Source of the DNA: an uncultured Candidatus Saccharibacteria bacterium
GTDB lineage: Bacteria; Patescibacteriota; Minisyncoccia; Phycocordibacterales; JAKAEA01
Direction of reading: 5' to 3'
DNA length: 64,000 nt
Assembly (NCBI GenBank): GCA_964577595.1
Contig: CAZNZK010000001.1
Span: 140,430 to 204,429 of the forward strand
Shown here in pieces: positions 8,690 through 18,504 of this stretch. Below the pieces are notes generated by a model. It saw nothing but the letters and a program-made list of their open reading frames with translations, was not told where the DNA came from and made no database searches. Made by a program: the position numbers and the translations under genes. Positions within the stretch are counted from its first letter, which is position 1. Every line of letters starts with the position of its first letter.

Positions 8690-8767
8690 TGGTGACCCCT
8701 ACGGGATTCGAACCCGTGTTCCAAGCTTGAGAAGCTCGTGTCCTGGACCAGGCTAGACGAAAGGGCC
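8690..8767 (-). tRNA. tRNA-Glu (anticodon CTC), CCA encoded
   Basis: Cloverleaf read by hand: acceptor GGCCCTT/AGGGGTC, D arm, anticodon stem CGAGC/GCTTG with loop TTCTCAA, T arm ACGGG-TTCGAAT-CCCGT, discriminator A, CCA. Confidence 0.75.
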
Positions 8768-8802
8768 GGTTTGTTGCGGAACTATAACAAGAAAATACCT
8801 CT

Positions 8803-8867
8803 AAAGCAAAAAGGGTTTTCTCGGGGAGATAAACGATGCAAGCCCCTTCGAAAACCCTTTTTGCTTT
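8803..8867 (-). repeat. Copy 1 of conserved hairpin element (core TTTTCTCGGGGRGATAAACGATGCAAGYCCCTWCGAAAA) with 18-bp outer inverted repeat, at the dnaJ 3' end; terminator-like
   Basis: Outer arms aaagcaaaaagggttttc / gaaaaccctttttgcttt are perfect complements; inner GGGG…CCCC stem; near-identical core recurs at 26841-26900. Confidence 0.5.
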
Positions 8868-10059
8868 ATATCCCCTCCTTCTTAAGTTCCTCAACAAGCT
8901 TAGCGGCATTTTTTGAAAGCTTGTGTGGAAGTTGAATATTGATTTTTACCAGAAGGTCACCACGGCGGCCACGGGCGCTGGGGCTTGTGGCGTCGCCCCT
9001 ATTATTTTCGTTGGCTTGAGCTTCTATAGGCACACCCTTGCCGCGAACGCGGAGGATTTCACCAAAGCTGATGCCAACAGGGATTTTTAAGGTGAGCGGG
9101 CCGTCGAGCGTTTCCACGGAATATTCTCCGCCGGAAAGAGCGGCCGAAAGCTTGATGGAAAGATCGGTGACAATGTTGTGGCCTTCGCGACGCAAACCGG
9201 GGTGAGGCTTTACGTGCACGCGAATGTAGAGATCGCCAGCGTTACCCATGGCCGCTCCGCCTGGCACAGCTTCCCCACCACCGGAAAGGCGGATGATTTC
9301 ACCGTCGTTGATGCCGGGAGGAACCAGAATACTGATTTGTTCTTGTTTGCGAATGACGCCAACGCCACGACAATTCTTGCACTTTTGACTGGGAACTTTG
9401 CCGGAGCCGTGACAGGTTTCGCAGGTGCGAGTAGTGCTGAATGTACCCATGAGCGAGCTGCGGGTTTCGCGGATTTTACCTTTGCCATTGCAGGTGGTGC
9501 AGTCGTTCGTTTTGGCGCCCGGCTCGGCACCGGTGCCCTTGCAGATATCACAGGCTGATGTTTTATTTAAAACAATATTGCGAGTAATGCCGAAAACTGA
9601 TTCCGAAAGATTCAGGTCAATGTCAACGGAAATATCGGCACCGCGAGTGCGGCCGCCAGCATTGCCGCCACGGCGACCGCCAAAAAATTGGCTGAAAATG
9701 TCGCCGAGATCAATGTCTTCAAAACCTTGGCCGGCGCCATTTTGAAAACCGGAGAAATCAAAGCCACCGAAATCGTTGGGGTTGAAACCGGCTCCGCCAA
9801 AACCGCTTGCTCCCGGCCCGCCCGCACCATTGGCGCCGGTGAACACGCGGCCATAGGTGTCGTATTCGGCGCGCTTTTTGTCATCGGAGAGCACGGAATA
9901 GGCCTCGCTTGCCTCCTTGAACTTGCTGGCATCGCCGCCGGCCTTGTCGGGGTGATATTTGTGGGCCATCACCCGGAAGGCCTTTTTAATGTCGTCCTTT
10001 GAGGCGTTTTTCTGAATTCCCAATACTTCGTAGTAGTTTTTCGCCATAATTAGAGGCAT
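8866..10059 (-). CDS. dnaJ: Chaperone DnaJ
   Basis: J domain (YYEVLGI…HPDK), G/F-rich linker, four CxxCxGxG zinc-finger repeats, C-terminal domain. Confidence 0.9.
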   Translation of the reverse strand: MPLIMAKNYYEVLGIQKNASKDDIKKAFRVMAHKYHPDKAGGDASKFKEASEAYSVLSDDKKRAEYDTYGRVFTGANGAGGPGASGFGGAGFNPNDFGGFDFSGFQNGAGQGFEDIDLGDIFSQFFGGRRGGNAGGRTRGADISVDIDLNLSESVFGITRNIVLNKTSACDICKGTGAEPGAKTNDCTTCNGKGKIRETRSSLMGTFSTTRTCETCHGSGKVPSQKCKNCRGVGVIRKQEQISILVPPGINDGEIIRLSGGGEAVPGGAAMGNAGDLYIRVHVKPHPGLRREGHNIVTDLSIKLSAALSGGEYSVETLDGPLTLKIPVGISFGEILRVRGKGVPIEAQANENNRGDATSPSARGRRGDLLVKINIQLPHKLSKNAAKLVEELKKEGI

Positions 10060-10082
10060 TATAGCGCAAATTTAGATGAGTT

Positions 10083-10949
10083 TCAAGCTCTATTGCTGGG
10101 TAGTTTTTTGCTACTTTTACCCCGTAAGACCTGGGCATTCTTTTCTGTTATCACTTTCTTGCCGGTTTTTGACTCAATGTTTTTACGGGCATCGCCGGCG
10201 ATACTACCGCCTTCTCGGGCAACTTCTTTGCTTTCGTTAAAACCTTCCGGCTCTTTGCTTTTTGAAATTTCCGTCGTCGCCGTTTCTGCGAGCATGTTTA
10301 ACACCAGCTCCAGGTTGGTCATATTGTCACGCAGGTTTTCTTTCTTTAGGCCTTTGAGTTCTTTATATTCCTTGGTGGTCATTTCTGCCCAGGCCTTAGT
10401 GATTTCATCGGTCAAAATCGCGAATTCCAAACCCTCTTTAACGCCGCGCTGTTCCCACTCGTCGGTTAAGTCCTTCCGGATTTCAATACTCTTTAGGCGC
10501 TGGTTGATCCAAGCTACGCTATAACCCTTTCGCAGGTATGTTTTGAGGGCGCGATTGATAGTAAGCTCCGGATCGGCTGTTTCCTCAAGGTGCTGATAGC
10601 CCACCTTTGCCAGCCAAAGCTTAAACGGCTCGGCATTAGGCGATGGGATTGACTGAATAAGCCGGAGTAGGGTTTCCGTATCGGCGGCGTCAGTTAGCCG
10701 CATTTTGCCGTCTGGAGCAATCATTTTCAAACCGTGACATTTTGTCACGGTTTCGTTTCCGCCCTCTTCCAGTAGTCTTTCTTTTAATTTTCGCCAATAC
10801 GCAACCGGGTCAACGCTTTTTGTCAAAACAGCTACTACGTCAGAAACAGAAAAATACCACAGCTCTTTTTCAGCATCCCAATGTCGGCGGATATTTTGGC
10901 CTTCAAAAATAGCTACGGCCTTAGGTTTTGATTGATCTTTTGGTGGCAT
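10083..10949 (-). CDS. Bro-N domain protein (DinD/antirepressor-like), likely co-transcribed with dnaJ
   Basis: N-terminal …AIFEGQNIRRHWDAEKELWYFSVSDVVAVL…PNAEPFKLWLAKV… fits the Bro-N pattern; 23-bp gap to dnaJ. Confidence 0.55.
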   Translation of the reverse strand: MPPKDQSKPKAVAIFEGQNIRRHWDAEKELWYFSVSDVVAVLTKSVDPVAYWRKLKERLLEEGGNETVTKCHGLKMIAPDGKMRLTDAADTETLLRLIQSIPSPNAEPFKLWLAKVGYQHLEETADPELTINRALKTYLRKGYSVAWINQRLKSIEIRKDLTDEWEQRGVKEGLEFAILTDEITKAWAEMTTKEYKELKGLKKENLRDNMTNLELVLNMLAETATTEISKSKEPEGFNESKEVAREGGSIAGDARKNIESKTGKKVITEKNAQVLRGKSSKKLPSNRA

Positions 10950-11096
10950 TTACTTTTTACTGCTAACTACTAAGGAGGAGAAACGATCGTAATACGTGAA
11001 TTATATATCTAGTAAATTTCACGACAAGTATTTTTCTTCCGGTTTTTGTGGTGTGGTTCAATTCGTGATAATTTGTCACCGTTTGCCAGAAACTCC

Positions 11097-11121
11097 AGTT
11101 GGTGACGCAGTGTCACCAACT
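11097..11121. promoter_or_regulatory. Perfect 10-bp inverted repeat AGTTGGTGAC-gcagt-GTCACCAACT (plus a third GTCACC copy 30 bp upstream); candidate operator or terminator hairpin
   Basis: Read directly; lies between the GC-rich mini-ORF and the Bro-N gene. Confidence 0.35.
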
Positions 11122-11175
11122 CAACTGTCCGGAAAAATCGGACGATTCATTTTAAAAAATCCCAATAAAAAAGGA

Positions 11176-11541
11176 CTAGGTGGTCAACCTAGCCCAGACG
11201 GCGTGTGCTAATCGCCAACTTATTCTCCCTAGCCACAACGCGAGTCGGTGCGCGAGGTGTCCCAACTGCACCAACAACCAGTGCGCTAGCCGCAATAATT
11301 GCCGGCCGAGGTAGCGTGCTAGGAGCGCGAGTTGGTGGCCGAACCAGCGGAGGAATTGTCTCGCCAGCCGCTGGCCGTGCCGGAGCGCCCATCGGGCTGG
11401 TACACCCAGGAAAGTCACGAAGATCCACCAGAAATACCTGCGCGCCAGGCGGGGGCCGCCGATGATCATGGCGATAGCGCCAATCTGAATGACCAGTACG
11501 ATCACCGCGGCCAGGAGGCACCCGAGCTGTTGTAACAGCAT
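11176..11541 (-). CDS. Small Arg/Leu-rich membrane-anchored protein encoded in a very GC-rich (about 62%) segment
   Basis: 121 aa, N-terminal hydrophobic helix then R/L/H-rich tail; AAGGAG SD 7 nt upstream of ATG; overlapping alternative-frame ORFs judged GC artefacts. Confidence 0.4.
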   Translation of the reverse strand: MLLQQLGCLLAAVIVLVIQIGAIAMIIGGPRLARRYFWWIFVTFLGVPARWALRHGQRLARQFLRWFGHQLALLARYLGRQLLRLAHWLLVQLGHLAHRLALWLGRISWRLAHAVWARLTT

Positions 11542-11647
11542 GCCAAACTCCTTTTTGTTCGGATTCTGAACGGAGTAATCACGTTGATTTCTCCAGCTCC
11601 TAATAGTTTAACACGAGTAAACTAAAATGTCAAATAAGTCAACCAAA

Positions 11648-11672
11648 TGAAAACCCCATCTTGCGATGGGGG
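11648..11672 (-). terminator. Rho-independent terminator (CCCCATC-ttgc-GATGGGG + U-tract on minus strand)
   Basis: Hairpin and following T-run read on the minus strand. Confidence 0.5.
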
Positions 11673-12169
11673 TTTGGGGGGTGGCGCTTCAAGAAGGCAA
11701 AAGTGGTTGTGTGAGTTGAAATGCCAAGAACTCGCAAACCAAAGAGATTGAAACAGAATTTCATCTCTCAACATCTGTTCGGCTATAATCTCTTAGAATT
11801 TGCCGACAAAGTTGAGAAACTACACTTGATTGGACGAACCAACCTTTTTTGAGCTATTGCAGACAATCAAATCAACTCCGCAATAGGCATGGATTCGGGC
11901 TCCTCACGCGCGTGCGCGTCAATCATTCGGTGATAATCCATCACAATTTCCGAATGACATTCCAGAGGGGAATTTCTTCCGACACTAGGAAAACCTGGGA
12001 AAGGACATGCGCTTATGCGCCTCTAATAATAACTCCCGGAAGCCCAATGCTTCCTGCTCCTAAGGCGTTACTCTTATGCTGGTGCTAGTATAGCACGTCT
12101 GTGGAAGTTGTCAAGCGTTTTTGCTAGTTTCTTATGCTAGATGTCAAAATATGGCTCTAAATAATGATT

Positions 12170-12208
12170 AAAGAAAAATCCCACGCCCGGAATGAACCGA
12201 GCGTGGGA
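12170..12208 (-). terminator. Rho-independent terminator after the radical-SAM gene (CCCACGC…GCGTGGG + UUUUUCUUU)
   Basis: 7-bp GC stem, 14-nt loop, T-tract, 25 nt downstream of the stop. Confidence 0.55.
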
Positions 12209-12231
12209 GTGAAGATCAAAGAACGCTGTAA

Positions 12232-14151
12232 TTAGGAATTTTTCTTCGAGCTGACGGGCTTGTAGGCCCTGCGTGGCACTGCGCCGGGGCACTTATCAGC
12301 AATGATTTTGTCCGCGCGAGCGATGAGCTCGCGGGCCTCTTCCATGCTGATTCGGGTAAAGTGATGGTACCAAGCCTCCTCGGTCTCCATGGGAACAACA
12401 AGCTCCTCACGGCGACTGGCAAAGTCTTGGGACCACTCTGCTTTGCCGAGCGTCTTTCCGACCTTCTCCGCCAATTGCTTGGCGTAATCGTAATCGTAAA
12501 AGAGCTGGCTAATCGGCGACCCGAAGTTGAGCCACCAGACGTCGCTTTCGCAGGTGTCAAACTGCTCTCCGAGCTGATCGGCCATCCAGTTGATATGCTC
12601 GAGCGTGCTTTCGCACGTCTCGCGCGTTTCTCCCGGACTGCCGAAGATGAACGAAGCGTGAAGATAGGTGCCGCTTGAAGCGATGAGCTCGGTGGCGAGC
12701 CGATTTTCATCGATCCGCCGACCGCTCTGCTTTGAGCTCTTCACGATTCCGCTGGAAAGGATCCGCTCATCCCCGGACTCCTGGCCCATATTGATGACGA
12801 CACGCTCGGTTGCGAGCGCATGCCACATGTCCAGAAATTGAGGATGTTGGGCGACTCCTTGTCCACGACCGTAAATGGTCAACGCACGCCACGGCGAAAC
12901 GCCGCGAAGCGCATTGGCCACCTTCGGTGCCATCTCGTAGGAACTGTCAGTGACATTGTAAAGCGTATTGATACCAAAGCCTTTGAAAGCCTCGGCCAAC
13001 GTCACAATAGTGTCCGCGCTCGGAATTCGGATGTCATGAACGCCCGGAATAGTGCAGAACGCACAGACCTCGCCTCCAGCCGCACGAGTGCAGCCTTGGG
13101 CGAAGTGCGCTGTCGCATTCTTCACCGTCTGCGGGTCGCTGAATTTGTGCCCGTAGGTGAACCGGTAATTTGACCACACCTGCTCCCAGTAGGAAGCGTG
13201 AAAGAGGTCGAACTTCGGCACAAGGAAAGCGTCGTCGATGAATCGCTTGAAATCAGCATTCCGCTGGACCCCAAGCTGTACCAGCTCGGCTTTGAGTTGC
13301 GGCTTGCAGTTTGAGCGCATGGTGGCCCCAGACAGCGTTTGTACGCCGTCAATTTGCAACTTCTCAATCGGCACCTTGGTAATCTGCCGGAAGAAACCGC
13401 GGACGGCCGTCAGGCTGTTCCCAGTAAAGACCGCGTCAATGGGCTTGCGAGGAAGCGCGAGTAGCTGGTTGGCGCGAAAGATCGCGGAGTCGTTTCCGGC
13501 AATCACATGCTTCGCACCAAGCTCCTTGGCTTTCTCGGCGAGCACAACGCCGCGTTCAATACCAGTCGTGACCAGAGAGAGTCCGACAATGTCGCCGGGT
13601 TGAACCAACGACTCCATCGGCGCAAACCCTTGCACAAGCTCGTCCCAGAGCACTACTTCATATCCCTCTTGATCAGCAATGGTGCCGATGTAGAGGAGGC
13701 CAAGATGCGGCCACGTTCGGTAGAGTGTCGTATCGCCGCCGAGCTCATTTATGTTCTGCTCGACATTGATGAGGACGAGGCGCCGTTTTTGTTCACGGCG
13801 TTTGGCGAGAACCATTGCCGCGCCTGGCGTCATCGTGCTTGCGCACACGTATCGCCGCCGTTCGTCACGGAACAAATCGGTTCTAAACGTGAGAACTAAC
13901 TTGTGTTTGGTGGGAATGTCCCGTGGACCGTCGTAGTCCTTTAAGGCTTTCGCCGCAAGGACTCGGTCAGAAGTTGCCGCAATAAAGTTGTCATGCGGAA
14001 TTTGGTAGTGATCGACATACGTTTGCCGCACAGTGTCATACGTTACCTGGGACGGATCCCATGTCACGTATGCCGGCGATGCGACGACCTCCGCCCTGAT
14101 GAACATCACCAGGAAAAGCGGAATCAACCAATATTTCCTATTCATTTTCAA
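12232..14151 (-). CDS. Cobalamin-binding-domain radical SAM protein (class B-like) with non-canonical CX8CX2C motif and signal-peptide/TM-like N-terminus
   Basis: Rossmann/B12-like segment (RRLVLINVEQ…GLLYIGT…DIVGLSLVTTG…); cluster motif GCTRAAGGEVCAFC; rSAM core motifs INMGQESGDERIL and FIFGSPGETRET; GGAG SD before the ATG at 14145; N-terminus MNRKYWLIPLFLVMFIRAEVVASPA; GC about 54%. Confidence 0.6.
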   Translation of the reverse strand: MKMNRKYWLIPLFLVMFIRAEVVASPAYVTWDPSQVTYDTVRQTYVDHYQIPHDNFIAATSDRVLAAKALKDYDGPRDIPTKHKLVLTFRTDLFRDERRRYVCASTMTPGAAMVLAKRREQKRRLVLINVEQNINELGGDTTLYRTWPHLGLLYIGTIADQEGYEVVLWDELVQGFAPMESLVQPGDIVGLSLVTTGIERGVVLAEKAKELGAKHVIAGNDSAIFRANQLLALPRKPIDAVFTGNSLTAVRGFFRQITKVPIEKLQIDGVQTLSGATMRSNCKPQLKAELVQLGVQRNADFKRFIDDAFLVPKFDLFHASYWEQVWSNYRFTYGHKFSDPQTVKNATAHFAQGCTRAAGGEVCAFCTIPGVHDIRIPSADTIVTLAEAFKGFGINTLYNVTDSSYEMAPKVANALRGVSPWRALTIYGRGQGVAQHPQFLDMWHALATERVVINMGQESGDERILSSGIVKSSKQSGRRIDENRLATELIASSGTYLHASFIFGSPGETRETCESTLEHINWMADQLGEQFDTCESDVWWLNFGSPISQLFYDYDYAKQLAEKVGKTLGKAEWSQDFASRREELVVPMETEEAWYHHFTRISMEEARELIARADKIIADKCPGAVPRRAYKPVSSKKNS

Positions 14152-14258
14152 ACTCCTTTCAGTAACAGTTTCCGCTCATAATATTAACACGTATATTCAG
14201 TTTTGTAAAGAAAAAACCGAGTTATTAGCTCGGTTTACTCTCCTTTCTAATGAACATG

Positions 14259-15404
14259 TCAGTGGAGGATGGCGTGGGCTCCTTGGGGGAGCTCGCCATC
14301 TTTCCGTAGACGACGGTTTACAACGGTTGGACGAGTCCACTCCGACTTTGGCGCAGACGGGTCGTGACCCATGCCTCTGGGGCGATGCCAATACCCCTGC
14401 CGGAAATGGGGTGTCAGTATGCGGCCAGTTCTGCCAACATCAGTATGGTCCTCAAGAACACGGCGATCTTCTACTGAAACCTTGAACTCGGTAGAAAGCG
14501 TGCATATCTGGCGTTCGTCCGTGACACCATGTCCCCGGTCGTTCAGCACGGGCTTATCGTCCCGGTTCCACGAGGAAACATGCGACGAAGAGGACGGCAA
14601 AGTTTTCATATACATACAGATGCCCGCAACGATACGGAACACTTGTTCGCATATGGTGCTTTCCGCCCAGGTCTGAGGAGTTGGGGTTCCTGCCTGTGTG
14701 ACATTGAACTCGGAATCCATTACGAATTGAACAATGTACTTGTCGGAATTGTTTGCCGCGGTTCGTAGTATATTGCTGATTTTCTTCTCAACAACATGCC
14801 ACTTCTTGCGACGCGCCAACTCTTCAATTTGCCGTCGGTCCGATGCGGTGAGAAATTTGTCGGTTGCCAATTTGGCTGGCAACACCACAAAACGCAGATG
14901 CTGTTTCTCAATATCTCTCGCCACAATAATGGTATCGAAGGGTGTTTCAATACCACTCGCGTCCTTGCGTGCCCTGCATTTTGTGACCAGAGGAGTGGTG
15001 AGAGAAATCGCAAAGGCGTCAAATGGCAAACGCACATCGTCCCATGCAAGACCATCAATGCTGGTGGTGTTGAGTAGAAGTTGGAGATCAGCGTCAAGAG
15101 AATAGATGCGCCGCGAATGGGCGACCCACATGCCAAGCATGTGCAGCTCAAAAAACTGATCAGGCTTCTGGGGGACGTGTGCAGCGAGATGCTTACCCAC
15201 TTCCGCCCAACTTAGTCCCGGCACAATGTTGAGCAAGTCCTTCCTTAGGTGGCTCCATTGGAGCATCATGTTCACGTCGCTGTCCCGACCTGCCATCACC
15301 GGACGACCGAGGGCGCGATCAACTTCCCTTCCCATTTTAATGAGAAATCCGTAGTCTTCCTGGGAACGGAGCAGTTGCTCCAACTGCACTGCTGTATTAA
15401 CCAT
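14259..15404 (-). CDS. Hypothetical protein, possible nucleotidyltransferase (Pol-beta-like) fold; upstream partner of the radical SAM gene
   Basis: 381 aa; N-terminal …ALGRPVMAGRDSDVNMMLQW… weakly resembles the hG[GS]-x9-DxD NTase motif; no other recognisable domain; same GC-shifted island. Confidence 0.3.
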   Translation of the reverse strand: MVNTAVQLEQLLRSQEDYGFLIKMGREVDRALGRPVMAGRDSDVNMMLQWSHLRKDLLNIVPGLSWAEVGKHLAAHVPQKPDQFFELHMLGMWVAHSRRIYSLDADLQLLLNTTSIDGLAWDDVRLPFDAFAISLTTPLVTKCRARKDASGIETPFDTIIVARDIEKQHLRFVVLPAKLATDKFLTASDRRQIEELARRKKWHVVEKKISNILRTAANNSDKYIVQFVMDSEFNVTQAGTPTPQTWAESTICEQVFRIVAGICMYMKTLPSSSSHVSSWNRDDKPVLNDRGHGVTDERQICTLSTEFKVSVEDRRVLEDHTDVGRTGRILTPHFRQGYWHRPRGMGHDPSAPKSEWTRPTVVNRRLRKDGELPQGAHAILH

Positions 15405-15642
15405 ATATCACCTCACATTTTGTGAAAGATCCGTTTTTTAGGTTGAGACACTCTCAAACCTTGCTTATTAAATAATAAATCAAAAACACAGAAAAGTCAA
15501 GTATGGGGAATGTTAAAACAACCCGCTTTTGGGCGAGTTGTTTTGGGGTTATTTCAAGTTTTTTATCGACTTAACAAATTACAAGATTTTATTCTTATCC
15601 GAATGATTGTAAGTAATTTTTTTTGCAGTAGAATACGGACAC

Positions 15643-16224
15643 ATGGCATCCTTGCGTGAACAAAAAAGATTAATCAAAGGTATTCATGATAGCGATGATT
15701 TAGTGCTTTATGATACTCCCAACGAAACGAATATAGTGGAGTATTTTTTGAAACACCCCCTCTTTAATGAGGACAGTAAAATAAATTTTTCTAAACCGTA
15801 TTGGGAGGAAAACAAGAATTTTTGGCAACCTAGAGAAGAGCGTGTGCATAAAATTAAAGCACTCATTCGTTCTTGTATACACGATAAGTTTATCGAACCA
15901 ATAAAAGAGGAGGTGGAAAGACAGGAGCAGGTGCTTTCTGTCGATTATTATAAAATTATGTCTGGAACAAAAGAACCACCAAAGACATTTAAATACATTA
16001 TCGATCGTGGATATCAGGCCACAAGCCGAGGAACTGACTTGCTGACTGTCTGGGGTTTCGTTTCGATCACTTTAGAGAAGTACAGCCCCATTAGTCTATT
16101 TTTAACCGGTACTGGCATAGCGGCTGTTATTTTAGGGGCGATTTATTGGATTTTTACCCAACTACCTACGTGGCTGTGCTATGTTTCGTATATCCCTTTC
16201 GTATTTAAATGGTGCCATGCTTAA
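15643..16224 (+). CDS. AT-rich orphan protein with C-terminal TM helices
   Basis: 193 aa, about 35% GC versus about 48% background; own bidirectional terminator downstream. Confidence 0.4.
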   Translation: MASLREQKRLIKGIHDSDDLVLYDTPNETNIVEYFLKHPLFNEDSKINFSKPYWEENKNFWQPREERVHKIKALIRSCIHDKFIEPIKEEVERQEQVLSVDYYKIMSGTKEPPKTFKYIIDRGYQATSRGTDLLTVWGFVSITLEKYSPISLFLTGTGIAAVILGAIYWIFTQLPTWLCYVSYIPFVFKWCHA

Positions 16225-16226
16225 CG

Positions 16227-16256
16227 AAAAAGTCTTCCCATAAGGAAGACTTTTTC
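16227..16256. terminator. Bidirectional rho-independent terminator (AAGTCTTCC-cataa-GGAAGACTT flanked by A/T tracts)
   Basis: Perfect 9-bp stem with T-runs on both strands; serves the + strand orphan and the minus-strand dnaK unit. Confidence 0.6.
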
Positions 16257-16293
16257 TTATTGATTTTTATAATTTATTATTTTACTTCCGCAT

Positions 16294-16572
16294 CTATTTC
16301 TTCTTATTTTTATCTCCCGGTTTTTCAGGGGAAGGTAATTGAATTGGGCTCGTTATGCCTGACTCCATGTTTATTTCTCCAAACATAGCTTCTGATTTTT
16401 CAATCGTTTCTTTTAGTTTCAGATAGAGCTCCTTACCTAGTGTACGTCCAAGCGCAAAGGCTTGTATGTTGTTTCCGCATGTCATTGCAACAACAAAGTG
16501 ATCTTTACCTAGTCCGAGTAAGAAGTTGTCGGCAAAATTTTTGGGAACAGGATTAAGGTCTATATTAGTCAT
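16294..16572 (-). CDS. Small hypothetical protein downstream of dnaK
   Basis: 92 aa, 24-bp gap after the dnaK stop, before the terminator. Confidence 0.4.
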   Translation of the reverse strand: MTNIDLNPVPKNFADNFLLGLGKDHFVVAMTCGNNIQAFALGRTLGKELYLKLKETIEKSEAMFGEINMESGITSPIQLPSPEKPGDKNKKK

Positions 16573-16596
16573 TTTGGTTAGGTTAACTGATTTGTA

Positions 16597-18504
16597 TTAC
16601 TTCACCTCCGCATCTCTCACGTTTCCATCGGCACCAGCTGGGCCTTGGTCGCCGGGCTTTTGATCGCCTGCGGGATTGGCGCCAGGAGTGGTGCTGGAAT
16701 TCTGATTCATATGTTGGCCAATTTTCTGGAGCTCGGTGGAAAGGGATTCGGTCGCGGCTTTAATGGTCGCCAAGTCGGGAGTGGTGCTCTCCTTCGCCTT
16801 CTTCAAATCGGCAATTTTGGTTTCAATGGCGGTTTTCAAGTCGGCAGGCACTTTGTCGCCAGCGTCTTTGAGGGCTTTTTCGCTGGAATACACTAATTGC
16901 TCCGCCAAGTTTTTAGCTTCGGCAATGTCGCGCTTCTTTTGGTCGTCGGCGGCATTGGCGTCGGCATCGCGCTTCATGCGCTCAATATCGTCCTTGGAAA
17001 GGCCGGAAGAGCCTTGAATGCTGATAGTTTGGCTCTTACCGCTAGCCTTCTCCTTTGCTGTGACTTTCAGAATGCCGTTAGCGTCAACATCAAAGGTCAC
17101 CTCTACCTGCGGCATGCCCCGTGGAGAGGGCGGAATGCCATCAAGGATGAATTGGCCGAGCGACTTGTTGTCGGAGGCCATAGCTCGCTCGCCTTGCGTT
17201 ACGTGGACCTGTACGCTCGTTTGATTATCCGCGGCAGTTGAGAACACTTGGGATTTTGAAGTTGGAATGGTGGTGTTCTTTTCAATGAGCTTGGTAGCGA
17301 CGCCACCCATGGTTTCAATACCAAGGGAAAGGGGGATGACGTCCAAGAGAAGAATGTCTTTCACATCGCCAGTAATGACGCCGCCTTGAATGGCTGCGCC
17401 GATAGCGACAACTTCATCGGGGTTGACACCCATGTGTGGATCGCGACCGAAAAGATCCTTCACCGCTTTCTGCATGGCGGGCATTCTGGTTTGACCGCCG
17501 ACGAGCACTACTTCATTGAGCTCGCCTATTTTGAACGGCGAAGCGGCAATGGCGCGCTTGGTAATTTCAATGGCGCGGTCAATGAATTCCTGAGTTAACT
17601 TCTCTAAGTCAGTTCGCGTCATAGTGCGAATAAGGTGCAAGGGACCATTGGCGCTGGTGGAGACGAAGGGAATGTTGATTTCACTCTGCACGGCTGAGGA
17701 GAGCTCGATTTTGGCCTTCTCAGCGGCATCGTCGAGGCGCTGTTTAGCCAAGGGGTCTGCCAAAAGGTCAATTCCTTGCTCTTTCTTGAAGCCTTCAGCC
17801 AGCCAGGTGATGATTTTCTGGTCGATGTCCTTACCGCCCAGGTGAGCGTCGCCGTCGGTAGATTTTACTTCAACGACATCGTCACCGACTTCCAAAATGG
17901 AGATGTCGAATGTGCCGCCGCCGAAATCGAAGACGGCGATTTTTTCATTTTTCTTTTTGTTGAAGCCATAGGCAAGCGCGGCCGCGGTGGGCTCGTTAAT
18001 GATGCGCTTCACGTTAAGGCCGGCTATCTGCCCGGCGTCTTTGGTGGCCTGGCGCTGATTGTCGTTGAAATAGGCTGGCACGGTGATAACAGCATCGGTG
18101 ATTTTTTCACCAAGGCGTGCTTCGGCATCTTGCTTCAATTTCTGCAGGATCATGGCCGAAATTTCTTCGGGGCGATACCATTTGTCGCCCATTTTTACTT
18201 CAATGCCACCAGTGGGGCCTTTACGGCATTCGAAGCCCACGGAAGCGATGTCTTTTTGCACAAGCGGCTCATCCCAATTGTGGCCGATGAAGCGCTTGAT
18301 TTGGTAGATGGTGTTTTTCGGATTGGTAACGCTCTGGCGTTTGGCCAAGAGGCCGACCATTCTGTCGCCAGTTTTTGACTGAGCGATAATGGACGGCGTG
18401 GTGCGAGCGCCCTCGGCGTTTTCCAGGATTTTCGGCTCACCGCCTTCCATAACGGCGACTGCTGAGTTGGTTGTGCCTAAATCGATACCTATGATTTTTG
18501 CCAT
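16597..18504 (-). CDS. dnaK: Chaperone DnaK (Hsp70)
   Basis: 635 aa; [24 protein letters not shown] motifs and C-terminal substrate-binding domain. Confidence 0.95.

What the first reader, a model, noticed from the sequence alone, without database searches (positions are those of the whole stretch)
11176..15404. GC-shifted two-gene island: putative NTase-fold protein + signal-peptide-bearing cobalamin-domain radical SAM enzyme with CX8CX2C cluster
Genes 14259-15404 and 12232-14151 are co-directional, share a promoter-like AT-rich leader at 15405-15640 and a strong terminator at 12170-12208. They sit in DNA of about 54% GC (62% for the adjacent mini-ORF 11176-11541) against a background of about 48%, and AT-rich orphan genes and a chaperone locus flank them, which suggests acquired DNA.

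The 639-aa protein has a Rossmann/B12-like domain and rSAM core motifs (GQESGDERIL, FIFGSPGETRET). Its [4Fe-4S] cysteines are spaced C-x8-C-x2-C rather than CxxxCxxC. An N-terminus resembling a secretion signal or anchor is preceded by a good GGAG SD. Such an N-terminus is not what I expect for a cytoplasmic class-B rSAM.

The 381-aa partner has only a weak GR-x7-SDVN resemblance to Pol-beta-type nucleotidyltransferases. An NTase + rSAM pair is reminiscent of nucleotide-modifying defence or antibiotic-like modules (viperin-like chemistry), but it matches no system I can name.
Basis: partly seen in the sequence, partly recalled or inferred. Interest (0 to 1): 0.72.

Follow-up and report, generated by a model that had tools for sequence, protein, structure and literature searches.

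The report
Orphan radical SAM enzyme beside AcrVA2-like gene
The two neighbouring genes are not a system: one is a divergent member of the phage-associated AcrVA2/FinQ family (not a nucleotidyltransferase). The other belongs to an uncharacterised family of radical SAM enzymes, found here almost only in Patescibacteria, with an unusual iron-sulfur motif, a secretion-signal-like start and an unexplained GC excess in most genomes checked.

Summary
The sequence observations mostly hold. Both ORFs, the terminator, the CX8CX2C cysteines, the hydrophobic N-terminus and the raised GC are real. The interpretation does not hold.

**The 381-aa "NTase".** It is an AcrVA2/FinQ-like protein. It carries a precomputed Pfam PF26125 hit. 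Its only meaningful PDB fold match is the AcrVA2 crystal structure. The family keeps a W...HxRxxH signature.

**The 639-aa protein.** It has a class-B-type radical SAM fold (Rossmann-like domain plus barrel, nearest AprD4, TsrM and MgmA). It belongs to an unnamed family of at least 191 clusters whose named sources are nearly all Patescibacteria. C354, C363, C366 and C513 are invariant.

**The pairing.** The two genes never co-occur elsewhere: 0 of 40 other radical SAM loci and 0 of 3 other partner contexts. A terminator-like hairpin and a promoter-like site lie between them.

**The GC shift.** It does not mark a local island. The radical SAM gene is GC3-richer than its neighbours in 30 of 34 genomes (mean +12 points, across the whole gene). 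The partner is not shifted. That family-wide GC excess and the Sec-like N-terminus on an Fe-S enzyme remain unexplained. The substrate is unknown.

The parts
12232..14145 (-). Gene for a class-B-like radical SAM protein. It is 637 aa from ATG 14145, or 639 aa if the TTG at 14151 is used.
   Evidence: ORF. SD AAGGAG lies 7 nt before ATG 14145. P0001 is 100% identical at 637 aa. AF2 pLDDT 91.8. Class-B radical SAM folds are the top Foldseek matches.
14098..14145 (-). Signal-peptide-like N-terminus MNRKYWLIPLFLVMFI: a basic n-region, then a 12-residue uncharged stretch, followed by R-A-E.
   Evidence: Translation. A hydrophobic stretch is present in 66 of 70 homologues. The uncharged run has a median of 12 residues, the n-region is net positive in 64 of 70, and there is no twin-arginine. 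It is absent from the short forms.
13312..13791 (-). Rossmann-like (B12-binding-like) domain, about aa 121-280.
   Evidence: Pfam PF02310 at aa 142-242, E 8e-4, below the cut-off. Alternating strand/helix pattern in the model. Foldseek aligns about 500 columns to TsrM, TokK and AprD4.
12532..13134 (-). Radical SAM partial barrel, about aa 340-540, including the GQESGDERIL and FIFGSPGET motifs.
   Evidence: Pfam PF04055 at aa 351-519, E 4e-3, below the cut-off. NCBIfam class-B families match aa 450-550. The FIFGSPGET region aligns with RimO IIVGFPGET. Fold matches.
13054..13092 (-). C354-x8-C363-x2-C366, the presumed [4Fe-4S]/SAM cluster ligands.
   Evidence: Translation. Invariant in 70 of 70 homologues.
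12613..12615 (-). C513, a fourth invariant cysteine of unknown role.
14181..14209 (-). Promoter-like site (TTTACA, 17 nt, TG-TAATAT) directly upstream of the radical SAM gene.
   Evidence: This is a consensus match only.
12169..12208 (-). Intrinsic-terminator-like hairpin (12 pairs, 9 G-C) plus T-run, ending the radical SAM transcription unit.
   Evidence: A 58-nt stretch is 84% identical 3' of the closest homologue in L061.
14259..15404 (-).
   Evidence: Precomputed PF26125 AcrVA2-like hit. The top Foldseek PDB hit is 7ci1 AcrVA2 at E 1.4e-3, with the next hit at E 1.3. Seven phage proteins match in BFVD. 697 family representatives were found.
14382..14408 (-). HFRQGYWHR: the family's HxRxxH signature, with Tyr here in place of the third His.
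   Evidence: Translation. Family counts: H333 69/70, R335 68/70, H338 58/70. H286, R288 and H291 are needed for AcrVA2 function (bioRxiv 10.1101/2022.11.29.518452).
14214..14236 (-). Terminator-like hairpin plus T-run between the two genes.
15472..15500 (-). Promoter-like site (TTGACT, 17 nt, TATTAT) upstream of the AcrVA2-like gene.
11176..11541 (-). A 121-aa GC-rich mini-ORF with its own promoter-like site, SD and terminator-like site. It is not part of any unit with the two genes.
   Evidence: Singleton cluster. No family hit.

Best explanation
Two unrelated, separately transcribed genes lie side by side in the dnaK-dnaJ interval of a Patescibacteria (CPR) chromosome.

**Gene 1 (14259-15404).** It encodes a divergent member of the AcrVA2/FinQ family. 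These proteins are known from phages and plasmids. In the one studied case, the protein binds the nascent N-terminus of a target protein and triggers loss of its mRNA through a C-terminal HxRxxH region. By inference, this copy is an accessory conflict gene with an unknown target.

**Gene 2 (12232-14145).** It encodes a member of an unnamed family of class-B-type radical SAM enzymes, found here almost only in Patescibacteria.
- Shown: a Rossmann-like domain followed by a partial TIM barrel, an invariant C-x8-C-x2-C triad on the loop after barrel strand 1, and retained GxIxGxxGE-type and ESG-type motifs.
- Inferred: the triad binds a [4Fe-4S] cluster that reductively cleaves SAM to a 5'-deoxyadenosyl radical. 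That radical abstracts hydrogen from an unknown substrate. The Rossmann domain either holds cobalamin for methyl transfer (TsrM/TokK-like) or is cofactor-free (AprD4-like).
- Inferred: the N-terminal hydrophobic segment plus a roughly 100-aa domain is an optional localisation module, because short forms lack it. It probably tethers the enzyme at the membrane, so a membrane-proximal substrate (lipid or envelope precursor) is the best guess.

**The GC excess.** It belongs to the radical SAM gene family itself, not to a local island.
For: AcrVA2-like identity:
- Precomputed PF26125 hits on P0121, P0122 and P0123.
- Foldseek finds 7ci1 AcrVA2 as the only hit near significance (E 1.4e-3, probability 0.99; next hit E 1.3).
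- Seven phage proteins of 320-420 aa match in BFVD at E 6e-7 to 1e-3.
- The family keeps W93, S-R-R at 97-99 and H333-x-R335-x-x-H338. This matches the functional residues reported for AcrVA2.

Radical SAM identity:
- AF2 pLDDT 91.8.
- Foldseek matches AprD4 at 6e-14, TsrM at 4e-13 and MgmA at 6e-13, followed by TokK, CysS and MiaB.
- C354, C363 and C366 are invariant.
- Weak Pfam and NCBIfam hits go to B12-binding, Radical_SAM and class-B families.

No system:
- 0 of 40 other radical SAM loci carry an AcrVA2-like gene.
- P0122, P0123 and P0274 have no radical SAM neighbour.
- A terminator-like and a promoter-like site lie between the genes.

Not a local island:
- The radical SAM gene has higher GC3 than its flanks in 30 of 34 loci. 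The mean excess is +0.124, Wilcoxon p is 1e-7, and all five gene segments show it.
- The radical SAM gene lies near dnaK, dnaJ or grpE in four divergent genomes, including DnaK-rSAM-DnaJ in L028.

Optional N-terminal module:
- Short forms of 504-519 aa start at RRFVLINVEQ.
Against: - Pfam Radical_SAM and B12-binding hits are below their gathering scores. A family profile finds no solved radical SAM structure by sequence. Assignment therefore rests on the predicted fold and on motifs.
- The local Pfam copy gives no hit for the partner, and a 70-sequence profile does not reach the AcrVA2 chain by sequence.
- The partner model is only moderately confident (pLDDT 63.7), with TM-scores of 0.34-0.43.
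- The window's copy has Tyr where the family and AcrVA2 have the third His.
- A basic n-region followed by a 12-residue h-region looks more like a Sec signal than a membrane anchor. That would put an Fe-S enzyme outside the cell.
- The substrate, cobalamin use and activity are all untested.
- The cause of the GC3 excess is unknown.
Confidence: 0.8

Rival explanations
1. One reading: an NTase plus radical SAM two-gene, viperin-like nucleotide-modifying defence or antibiotic module, carried on horizontally acquired GC-rich DNA.
For: The genes are co-directional and 107 nt apart. The radical SAM gene is GC3-rich. A defence-candidate Bro-N/DinD gene (PDC-S13, E 5e-133) lies 1.3 kb downstream.
Against: - No NTase family, motif conservation or fold was found.
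- No PADLOC hit for either protein.
- No co-occurrence in 43 other contexts.
- A terminator-like and a promoter-like site lie between the genes.
- The partner's GC is ordinary.
- The GC excess of the radical SAM gene is family-wide.
Confidence: 0.03
2. The long-form radical SAM protein is truly exported or faces outward. The N-terminus would be a Sec signal or type II signal anchor, and the enzyme would act on the outer face of the membrane or on the envelope.
For: The n-region is net positive in 64 of 70 homologues. The uncharged h-region is 12 residues in 38 of 70, which is signal-peptide length and short for a transmembrane helix. No second hydrophobic segment follows.
Against: - There is no twin-arginine motif for export in the folded state.
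- No conserved AXA cleavage site is visible.
- By established knowledge of radical SAM enzymes, SAM, a low-potential reductant and Fe-S assembly are cytoplasmic.
- Short forms with the same catalytic core have no signal at all.
Confidence: 0.1
3. The radical SAM gene is itself a laterally mobile accessory gene, possibly a single-gene defence or conflict function like prokaryotic viperins. Repeated transfer from GC-richer donors would explain its GC3 excess and its variable neighbourhoods.
For: - The GC3 excess occurs in 30 of 34 loci and is gene-wide.
- Almost no synteny is conserved.
- Distribution looks patchy: 39 loci among GTDB species representatives with two peptide patterns, which is a lower bound.
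- Some loci carry integrase, IetA/IetS-like or AcrVA2-like neighbours.
Against: - The +-2 neighbours are mostly housekeeping genes (TrmB, ABC transporters, Mur ligases, DnaK/J, ParA, MreB) with no defence enrichment.
- No PADLOC hit. None on IMG/VR viral contigs.
- Homologues are only 43-68% identical, so no recent transfer is visible.
- Radical SAM divergence is similar to DnaJ divergence among four dnaK-linked loci.
- Radical SAM GC3 tracks host GC3 (r 0.58).
Confidence: 0.08
4. The protein keeps the class-B fold but does not do radical chemistry. It could be a TsrM-like polar cobalamin methyltransferase, or a non-catalytic Fe-S protein.
For: TsrM is among the best structural matches. The cluster loop is atypical at CX8CX2C. 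Pfam Radical_SAM is below threshold.
Against: - The cysteine triad and the ESG and GxIxGxxGE-type motifs are invariant.
- CXnCX2C variants, including CX8CX2C, occur in other radical SAM clusters (PMC9477430).
- From general knowledge, not tested here, Patescibacteria generally lack cobalamin synthesis.
Confidence: 0.08

Closest known systems
Class B (B12-binding-domain) radical SAM enzymes: AprD4 (6fd2), TsrM (6wte), MgmA (9ccb), TokK (7kdy), CysS (9n1b)
   Same: The domain order is the same: a Rossmann-like N-terminal domain, then a partial TIM barrel, then a helical C-terminal domain. Foldseek gives E 6e-14 to 1e-9 over about 460-550 columns. It has the GxIxGxPGE-type motif. NCBIfam gives weak hits to PhpK, MJ_1487, HpnJ and MgmA.
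   Different: - Sequence identity is 11-15%.
- No curated family threshold is reached, and there is no PDB hit by sequence profile.
- The cluster motif is CX8CX2C rather than CX3CX2C.
- There is an extra signal-like helix plus a roughly 100-aa N-domain.
- Named sources are nearly all Patescibacteria.
- No biosynthetic gene cluster surrounds it.
- Cobalamin binding is unknown.
AcrVA2 (Moraxella bovoculi prophage anti-CRISPR, PDB 7ci1) and FinQ (plasmid fertility inhibitor); Pfam PF26125
   Same: It carries the precomputed PF26125 hit. AcrVA2 is the only meaningful PDB fold match. The size class is similar at about 320-400 aa. It has a conserved Trp in the N-terminal half and a C-terminal HxRxxH signature. 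Structural relatives occur in phages, including jumbo phages.
   Different: - There is no BLAST-level similarity to any phage or plasmid record.
- No IMG/VR locus was found.
- It is chromosomal in CPR-type contexts.
- The third His is Tyr in this copy.
- No Cas12a or any other target is known.
- Anti-CRISPR activity is untested.
Radical SAM clusters with extended cluster loops (CX4-11CX2C; RadicalSAM.org Megaclusters 4-6-x with CX8CX2C)
   Same: The first Cys-Cys spacing is lengthened and the CX2C end is retained (PMC9477430).
   Different: Those clusters lie outside the B12-binding-domain megacluster 2-1. No homology to them was tested here.
Prokaryotic viperins (pVips)
   Same: Stand-alone radical SAM genes. 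From general knowledge, eukaryotic viperin also carries an N-terminal membrane-targeting helix.
   Different: The fold class differs: viperins have no Rossmann domain. No viperin appears among the 50 listed matches. No PADLOC hit. The neighbourhoods are not defence islands.

Membership tests
Radical SAM superfamily | Three cysteines on the loop after barrel strand 1 that ligate the SAM-binding [4Fe-4S] cluster (canonical CX3CX2C) | tested here: inconclusive
   A three-Cys motif is present and invariant (C354, C363, C366), but its spacing is CX8CX2C, not canonical. Such variants are accepted in the superfamily (PMC9477430). Cluster binding was not tested.
Radical SAM superfamily | Partial (beta/alpha)6 TIM-barrel core | tested here: met
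   AF2 model with pLDDT 91.8. All 38 Foldseek hits with probability of at least 0.99 at E <= 1e-3 are radical SAM enzymes.
Radical SAM superfamily | Pfam PF04055 at or above its gathering score | tested here: not met
   17.9 bits against a cut-off of 29.5, E 4e-3. Many homologues do carry a precomputed PF04055 hit.
Radical SAM superfamily | Reductive cleavage of SAM to the 5'-deoxyadenosyl radical | not testable with these tools
   Needs anaerobic biochemistry.
Class B (cobalamin-dependent) radical SAM | N-terminal Rossmann-type B12-binding domain fused to the barrel | tested here: met
   The fold aligns across both domains with TsrM, TokK, CysS and AprD4. Pfam PF02310 is sub-threshold at 19.6 against 32.1.
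Class B (cobalamin-dependent) radical SAM | Binds cobalamin | not testable with these tools
   From general knowledge, class B enzymes have no universal sequence motif for cobalamin binding, and the best structural match, AprD4, does not use cobalamin.
AcrVA2/FinQ family (PF26125) | Match to the family HMM | tested here: met
   Precomputed PF26125 hits are unmarked (E <= 1e-5) for P0121 (identical to the window protein) and P0123, and weak for P0122. Caveat: the local Pfam copy returned nothing, apparently because it lacks the model.
AcrVA2/FinQ family (PF26125) | Fold of the AcrVA2 crystal structure | tested here: inconclusive
   7ci1 is the top hit and stands alone (E 1.4e-3, probability 0.99, 355-378 columns). 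However, TM-scores are 0.34-0.43 and the query model has pLDDT 63.7.
AcrVA2/FinQ family (PF26125) | Conserved Trp and C-terminal H-x-R-x-x-H needed for function | tested here: inconclusive
   Family counts are W93 70/70, H333 69/70, R335 68/70 and H338 58/70. The window copy has H-F-R-Q-G-Y, with the third His replaced by Tyr. Equivalence to AcrVA2 H286, R288 and H291 rests on the pattern, not on a residue-level alignment.
AcrVA2/FinQ family (PF26125) | Carried on a mobile element; inhibits Cas12a or another target by mRNA down-regulation | not testable with these tools
   No integrase or att-like repeats lie nearby. P0274 sits among transposase, helicase and excisionase-like genes. Activity is untested.
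Pol-beta-type nucleotidyltransferase / CD-NTase | Conserved G[SG]...[DE]x[DE] catalytic motif, an NTase HMM hit and an NTase fold | tested here: not met
   No Pfam, NCBIfam or PADLOC NTase hit. The proposed residues vary across the family (R34 is Q, K or G; D43 is L, F or K; N45 is G) and lie in a segment with pLDDT below 50. No NTase appears among the fold hits.
Conserved two-gene system | Recurrent adjacency of the two families in unrelated genomes | tested here: not met
   0 of 40 other radical SAM loci and 0 of 3 other partner contexts.
Horizontally acquired genomic island | Composition deviating from the host specifically at this locus, plus mobility genes or att sites | tested here: not met
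   Only the radical SAM gene deviates, and it does so in 30 of 34 genomes. There is no integrase, no flanking direct repeats, and no tRNA at the borders of the two genes.
Sec-type signal peptide | Basic n-region, h-region of 7-15 residues, c-region with small residues at -3 and -1 | tested here: inconclusive
   The n- and h-regions fit. No conserved cleavage motif is seen. No dedicated predictor was available.

The most novel reading that the evidence does not exclude
The long-form enzyme is a radical SAM protein targeted to, or across, the membrane of CPR bacteria. It would act on envelope components or host-derived lipids. Its gene would be kept GC3-rich in otherwise AT-rich genomes by an unusual process, such as recurrent exchange or recombination-linked biased conversion, or selection on synonymous sites. 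This would be a lineage-specific membrane radical SAM chemistry tied to the episymbiotic lifestyle.
Probability: 0.12. Interest if true: 0.75.

Novelty: new variant of a known kind. Interest (0 to 1): 0.36.

Why it matters
The proposed new NTase plus radical SAM defence module does not exist, so that lead can be dropped. What remains is smaller but real.

1. **An unnamed radical SAM family.** Named sources are nearly all Patescibacteria, organisms with minimal metabolism. The family is so divergent that curated models miss it. It has an invariant CX8CX2C motif and a secretion-signal-like N-terminus that is hard to reconcile with Fe-S and SAM chemistry.
2. **An unexplained compositional signature.** The gene has a reproducible, gene-wide GC3 excess across dozens of genomes. 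This shows that a local GC shift alone is a poor island marker here.
3. **AcrVA2/FinQ-like genes in CPR-type chromosomes.** This extends the reach of a family whose members act on nascent proteins. The family has 697 representatives at 50% identity.

Tried and rejected
- Pfam, NCBIfam, PADLOC and PHROGs scans gave no specific family for either protein.
- Sequence searches against the PDB, with single sequences and with 70-sequence profiles, found no significant hit for either protein.
- tblastn of the partner and of its family consensus against the phage and plasmid collections found no match.
- IMG/VR scans with both family alignments found no locus.
- The word-indexed search with the partner profile returned only 9 proteins. 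The partner's structure therefore had a shallow alignment and a moderate pLDDT.
- The afdb50 fold library was unavailable.
- A CIRCE heat-shock operator search, prompted by the dnaK linkage, found none.
- A search for att-like direct repeats around the genes found nothing convincing.
- A second transmembrane segment at aa 97-118 was rejected. That stretch is short and variable in homologues.
- A defence-island reading of the radical SAM neighbourhoods was rejected. PADLOC hits among neighbours are mostly generic ABC ATPases. One IetA/IetS-like pair is the exception.
- Rfam found nothing on the ORF-free stretch 3' of the radical SAM gene.
- Literature searches found no description of this family.

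Full report
**1. Observation**

The three ORFs exist as described: 12232-14151(-) 639 aa, 14259-15404(-) 381 aa and 11176-11541(-) 121 aa. The window has 48.7% GC. The 639-aa gene has GC 0.558 and GC3 0.669, the highest GC3 among 47 genes of at least 150 aa (mean 0.521, sd 0.057). The 381-aa gene has GC 0.527 and GC3 0.565, which is within 1 sd. The mini-ORF has GC 0.617 and GC3 0.754. The two orphans between the 381-aa gene and dnaK have GC 0.38.

The terminator-like hairpin at 12208-12179(-) is real, with 12 pairs and a T-run. It is the only flanking sequence shared with the closest homologue's locus. A promoter-like site lies upstream of the 381-aa gene at 15500-15472. A terminator-like hairpin (14236-14214) and an extended -10 promoter-like site (14209-14181) also lie between the two genes. 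A single shared promoter is therefore not the simplest reading. The radical SAM start is most likely ATG 14145, 7 nt after AAGGAG. That gives the 637 aa of the identical database protein P0001.

**2. The 639-aa protein**

Curated models barely see it. Pfam B12-binding gives E 8e-4 and Radical_SAM gives E 4e-3, both below gathering. NCBIfam class-B families (PhpK, MJ_1487, HpnJ, MgmA) match only aa 450-550. Neither the single sequence nor a 70-sequence profile finds a solved structure by sequence.

Homologues are plentiful. At least 191 clusters were found, and the 120 listed are 504-637 aa (mostly 600-637 aa) and 43-68% identical. Every source name that gives an organism is Patescibacteria: Buchanan-, Parcu-, Microgenomates, Berkel- and Uhrbacteria. 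A scan of GTDB species representatives gave 39 family loci. Most are Paceibacteria, Kerfeld-, Uhr-, Moran-, Doudna-, Zambryskii- and Microgenomates MAGs. Fifteen carry other labels: "uncultured Candidatus Saccharibacteria", "uncultured Gammaproteobacteria", one Candidatus Kapaibacterium and generic "bacterium". I suspect some of these are mislabels but did not check.

An alignment of 70 members has invariant C354, C363, C366 (C-x8-C-x2-C) and C513. G456, S459 and L465 (the GQESGDERIL region) and S500, G504 and E508 (FIFGSPGET) are also invariant.

AlphaFold2 with this alignment gives pLDDT 91.8. Foldseek against the PDB returns AprD4 (6e-14), TsrM (4e-13), MgmA (6e-13), TokK, CysS and MiaB. 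These are class-B-type and related radical SAM enzymes, aligned over both the Rossmann-like domain and the barrel. Extended CXnCX2C loops, including CX8CX2C, are known elsewhere in the superfamily (PMC9477430). The spacing is unusual for a B12-domain enzyme but not unprecedented.

**3. The N-terminus**

A hydrophobic stretch occurs in 66 of 70 homologues. Among the 70 aligned members, the n-region is net positive in 64 and the uncharged stretch is exactly 12 residues in 38. It is followed by R/K-x-E/D, with no twin-arginine. No second hydrophobic segment follows. This looks like a Sec signal or signal anchor, which is odd for an Fe-S/SAM enzyme.

Short forms of 504-519 aa begin right at RRFVLINVEQ. 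They lack both the helix and the roughly 100-aa N-domain. The catalytic core therefore works without them, and the N-terminal module is an accessory, most simply for localisation. I infer membrane tethering, but the topology is unresolved.

**4. The 381-aa protein**

No NTase evidence was found. There are no HMM hits. The GR...SDVN residues vary across 70 family members and fall in a segment with pLDDT below 50.

The evidence for AcrVA2 is positive. The gene tables carry precomputed Pfam PF26125 "AcrVA2-like" hits for this protein and its relatives. A profile search finds 697 representatives at E <= 1e-3; the 150 best listed are mostly 380-400 aa. The AF2 model (pLDDT 63.7) has the AcrVA2 crystal structure 7ci1 as its only near-significant PDB match (E 1.4e-3, probability 0.99; next hit E 1.3). 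It matches seven uncharacterised phage proteins in BFVD, including jumbo-phage proteins.

The family keeps W93 (70/70), S97-R98-R99 and H333-x-R335-x-x-H338 (69, 68 and 58 of 70). AcrVA2 needs W79 and H286, R288 and H291. It acts by binding the nascent N-terminus of Cas12a and triggering loss of its mRNA. Homologues such as FinQ are spread over mobile elements, usually without Cas12a (bioRxiv 10.1101/2022.11.29.518452).

There are caveats:
- The local Pfam copy gives no hit.
- Sequence profiles do not reach 7ci1.
- No BLAST-level relatives occur in the phage, plasmid or IMG/VR collections.
- This copy has Tyr at the third His position.

**5. Is it a pair?**

No. I called and clustered ORFs in 40 other radical SAM loci. 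None has an AcrVA2-like neighbour. The partner's relatives P0122, P0123 and P0274 have no radical SAM gene nearby. The closest radical SAM homologues (68%, 63% and 59% identity) sit in entirely different contexts.

The 125 ORFs of at least 90 aa within two gene positions of the radical SAM gene are a housekeeping mix: TrmB-type regulators (8), ABC transporters (5), Mur ligases (4), DnaK/DnaJ, ParA, MreB and TruB. There is no defence enrichment.

There are two recurrent links:
- A TrmB-like regulator lies within four gene positions in 9 of 41 loci. It is divergently transcribed upstream in six of them, mostly with the short forms.
- dnaK, dnaJ or grpE lie within four genes in 4 of 41 loci. These include DnaK-rSAM-DnaJ in L028, the same order as in the window. 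The four genomes are divergent: DnaK identity is 60-76% and radical SAM identity 48-58%, similar to DnaJ at 45-54%.

The simplest history is that the radical SAM gene is the long-standing resident of the dnaK-dnaJ interval. The later arrivals would be the AcrVA2-like gene, the AT-rich orphans, the mini-ORF and the Bro-N/DinD-like gene. This is an inference.

**6. The GC shift**

In 34 loci with enough flanking genes, the radical SAM gene is GC-richer than its neighbours in 31. It is GC3-richer in 30 (mean +0.124, Wilcoxon p 1e-7) and has the top GC3 of its locus in 20. The excess is mainly at third positions: dGC1 +0.043, dGC2 +0.028 and dGC3 +0.124. Other genes have dGC3 of 0 +- 0.091, and DnaK has +0.063. 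All five gene segments show the excess, including the poorly conserved N-terminus.

Radical SAM GC3 follows host GC3 with a slope of 0.54 (r 0.58). The ribosomal protein S9 gene in the window is not raised. The shift is therefore a family trait, not a mark of a local island. I cannot explain it. Repeated transfer, recombination-linked biased conversion or synonymous-site selection are candidates.

**7. Verdict**

The finding's most exciting element, a new NTase plus radical SAM module, is refuted. What is there:
- A new, divergent member of the AcrVA2/FinQ family in a CPR chromosome.
- A member of an uncharacterised class-B-like radical SAM family, found here almost only in Patescibacteria, with a CX8CX2C motif and an optional signal-like N-terminal module.

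The mechanism up to the 5'-deoxyadenosyl radical is inferred from the fold and motifs. Substrate, cobalamin use and topology are open. A membrane-proximal substrate is my best guess, at low confidence. No paper describing the family was found.

Noticed in passing
window 11650-12082 (-): An ORF-free stretch of about 430 nt lies between a strong promoter-like site (12114-12087: TTGACA, 16 nt, TG-TATACT, 11 of 12 matches) and a terminator-like hairpin (11671-11654). The predicted RNA fold is -134.7 kcal/mol, z -3.1 against shuffles. It has no Rfam match and was seen only in this organism's contigs. It is a possible small or non-coding RNA.
   Followed up: partly
window 11176-11541 (-): A 121-aa ORF with GC 0.617 and GC3 0.754. 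It has its own promoter-like site (11633-11605), an AGGAG SD and a terminator-like site (11195-11173). The protein has an N-terminal hydrophobic helix followed by an Arg/Leu/His/Trp-rich, repeat-like amphipathic sequence. It has no family hit and is a singleton cluster. In L064, where the contig ends inside this ORF, the gene table instead lists a 66-aa gene on the opposite strand.
   Followed up: partly
window 10083-10949 (-): A 288-aa Bro-N / DinD-like protein matches the PADLOC defence candidate PDC-S13 at E 5.5e-133 and phrog_15286 at E 1e-121. It sits between the mini-ORF and dnaJ. It is a phage- or defence-associated gene inside the dnaK-dnaJ interval.
   Followed up: partly
34 loci: window 12232-14151, L001, L003 and 31 of L011-L048: The radical SAM gene is GC3-richer than its flanking genes in 30 of 34 genomes. 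The mean excess is +12.4 points, it spans the whole gene, and the gene has the top GC3 of its locus in 20 of 34. The extreme case is L001, at 0.545 against 0.276. The cause is unknown.
   Followed up: yes
window 8866-18504; L014, L019, L028: The radical SAM gene lies within four genes of dnaK, dnaJ or grpE in 4 of 41 loci from divergent genomes. L028 has DnaK-rSAM-DnaJ in one orientation, as in the window. No CIRCE operator occurs in the window.
   Followed up: partly
L026, L032, L034, L038, L039, L047 (also L016, L033): A TrmB-family regulator gene lies next to the radical SAM gene. It is usually divergently transcribed and mostly accompanies the short radical SAM forms that lack the N-terminal module. 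It may be a dedicated regulator.
   Followed up: no
window 15643-16224 (+) and 16294-16572 (-): Two AT-rich orphan ORFs (GC 0.38) lie between dnaK and the AcrVA2-like gene. One is 193 aa with C-terminal hydrophobic segments and the other is 92 aa. They converge on a 13-bp-stem bidirectional terminator-like hairpin at 16226-16256. Both are singletons with no family hit.
   Followed up: partly
L001 4440-7773: An AAA ATPase and an S8 peptidase pair matching the PADLOC IetA/IetS defence models lies directly upstream of the radical SAM homologue P0003. This is the only clear defence system seen next to a family member.
   Followed up: no
L062 (contig with partner homologue P0274): An AcrVA2-like gene sits among a transposase-like HTH gene, a methyltransferase, a NUDIX gene, a DEAD/SWI2-SNF2 helicase, HTH_17 excisionase-like genes and a DUF4365 gene. 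This looks like a mobile-element or conflict-island context, unlike the housekeeping contexts of P0122 and P0123.
   Followed up: no
window 8802-8868: A perfect 19-nt inverted repeat with a 29-nt spacer lies between tRNA-Glu (8690-8767) and the dnaJ stop codon (8866). Its right arm overlaps the stop codon. It may be the dnaJ terminator.
   Followed up: no
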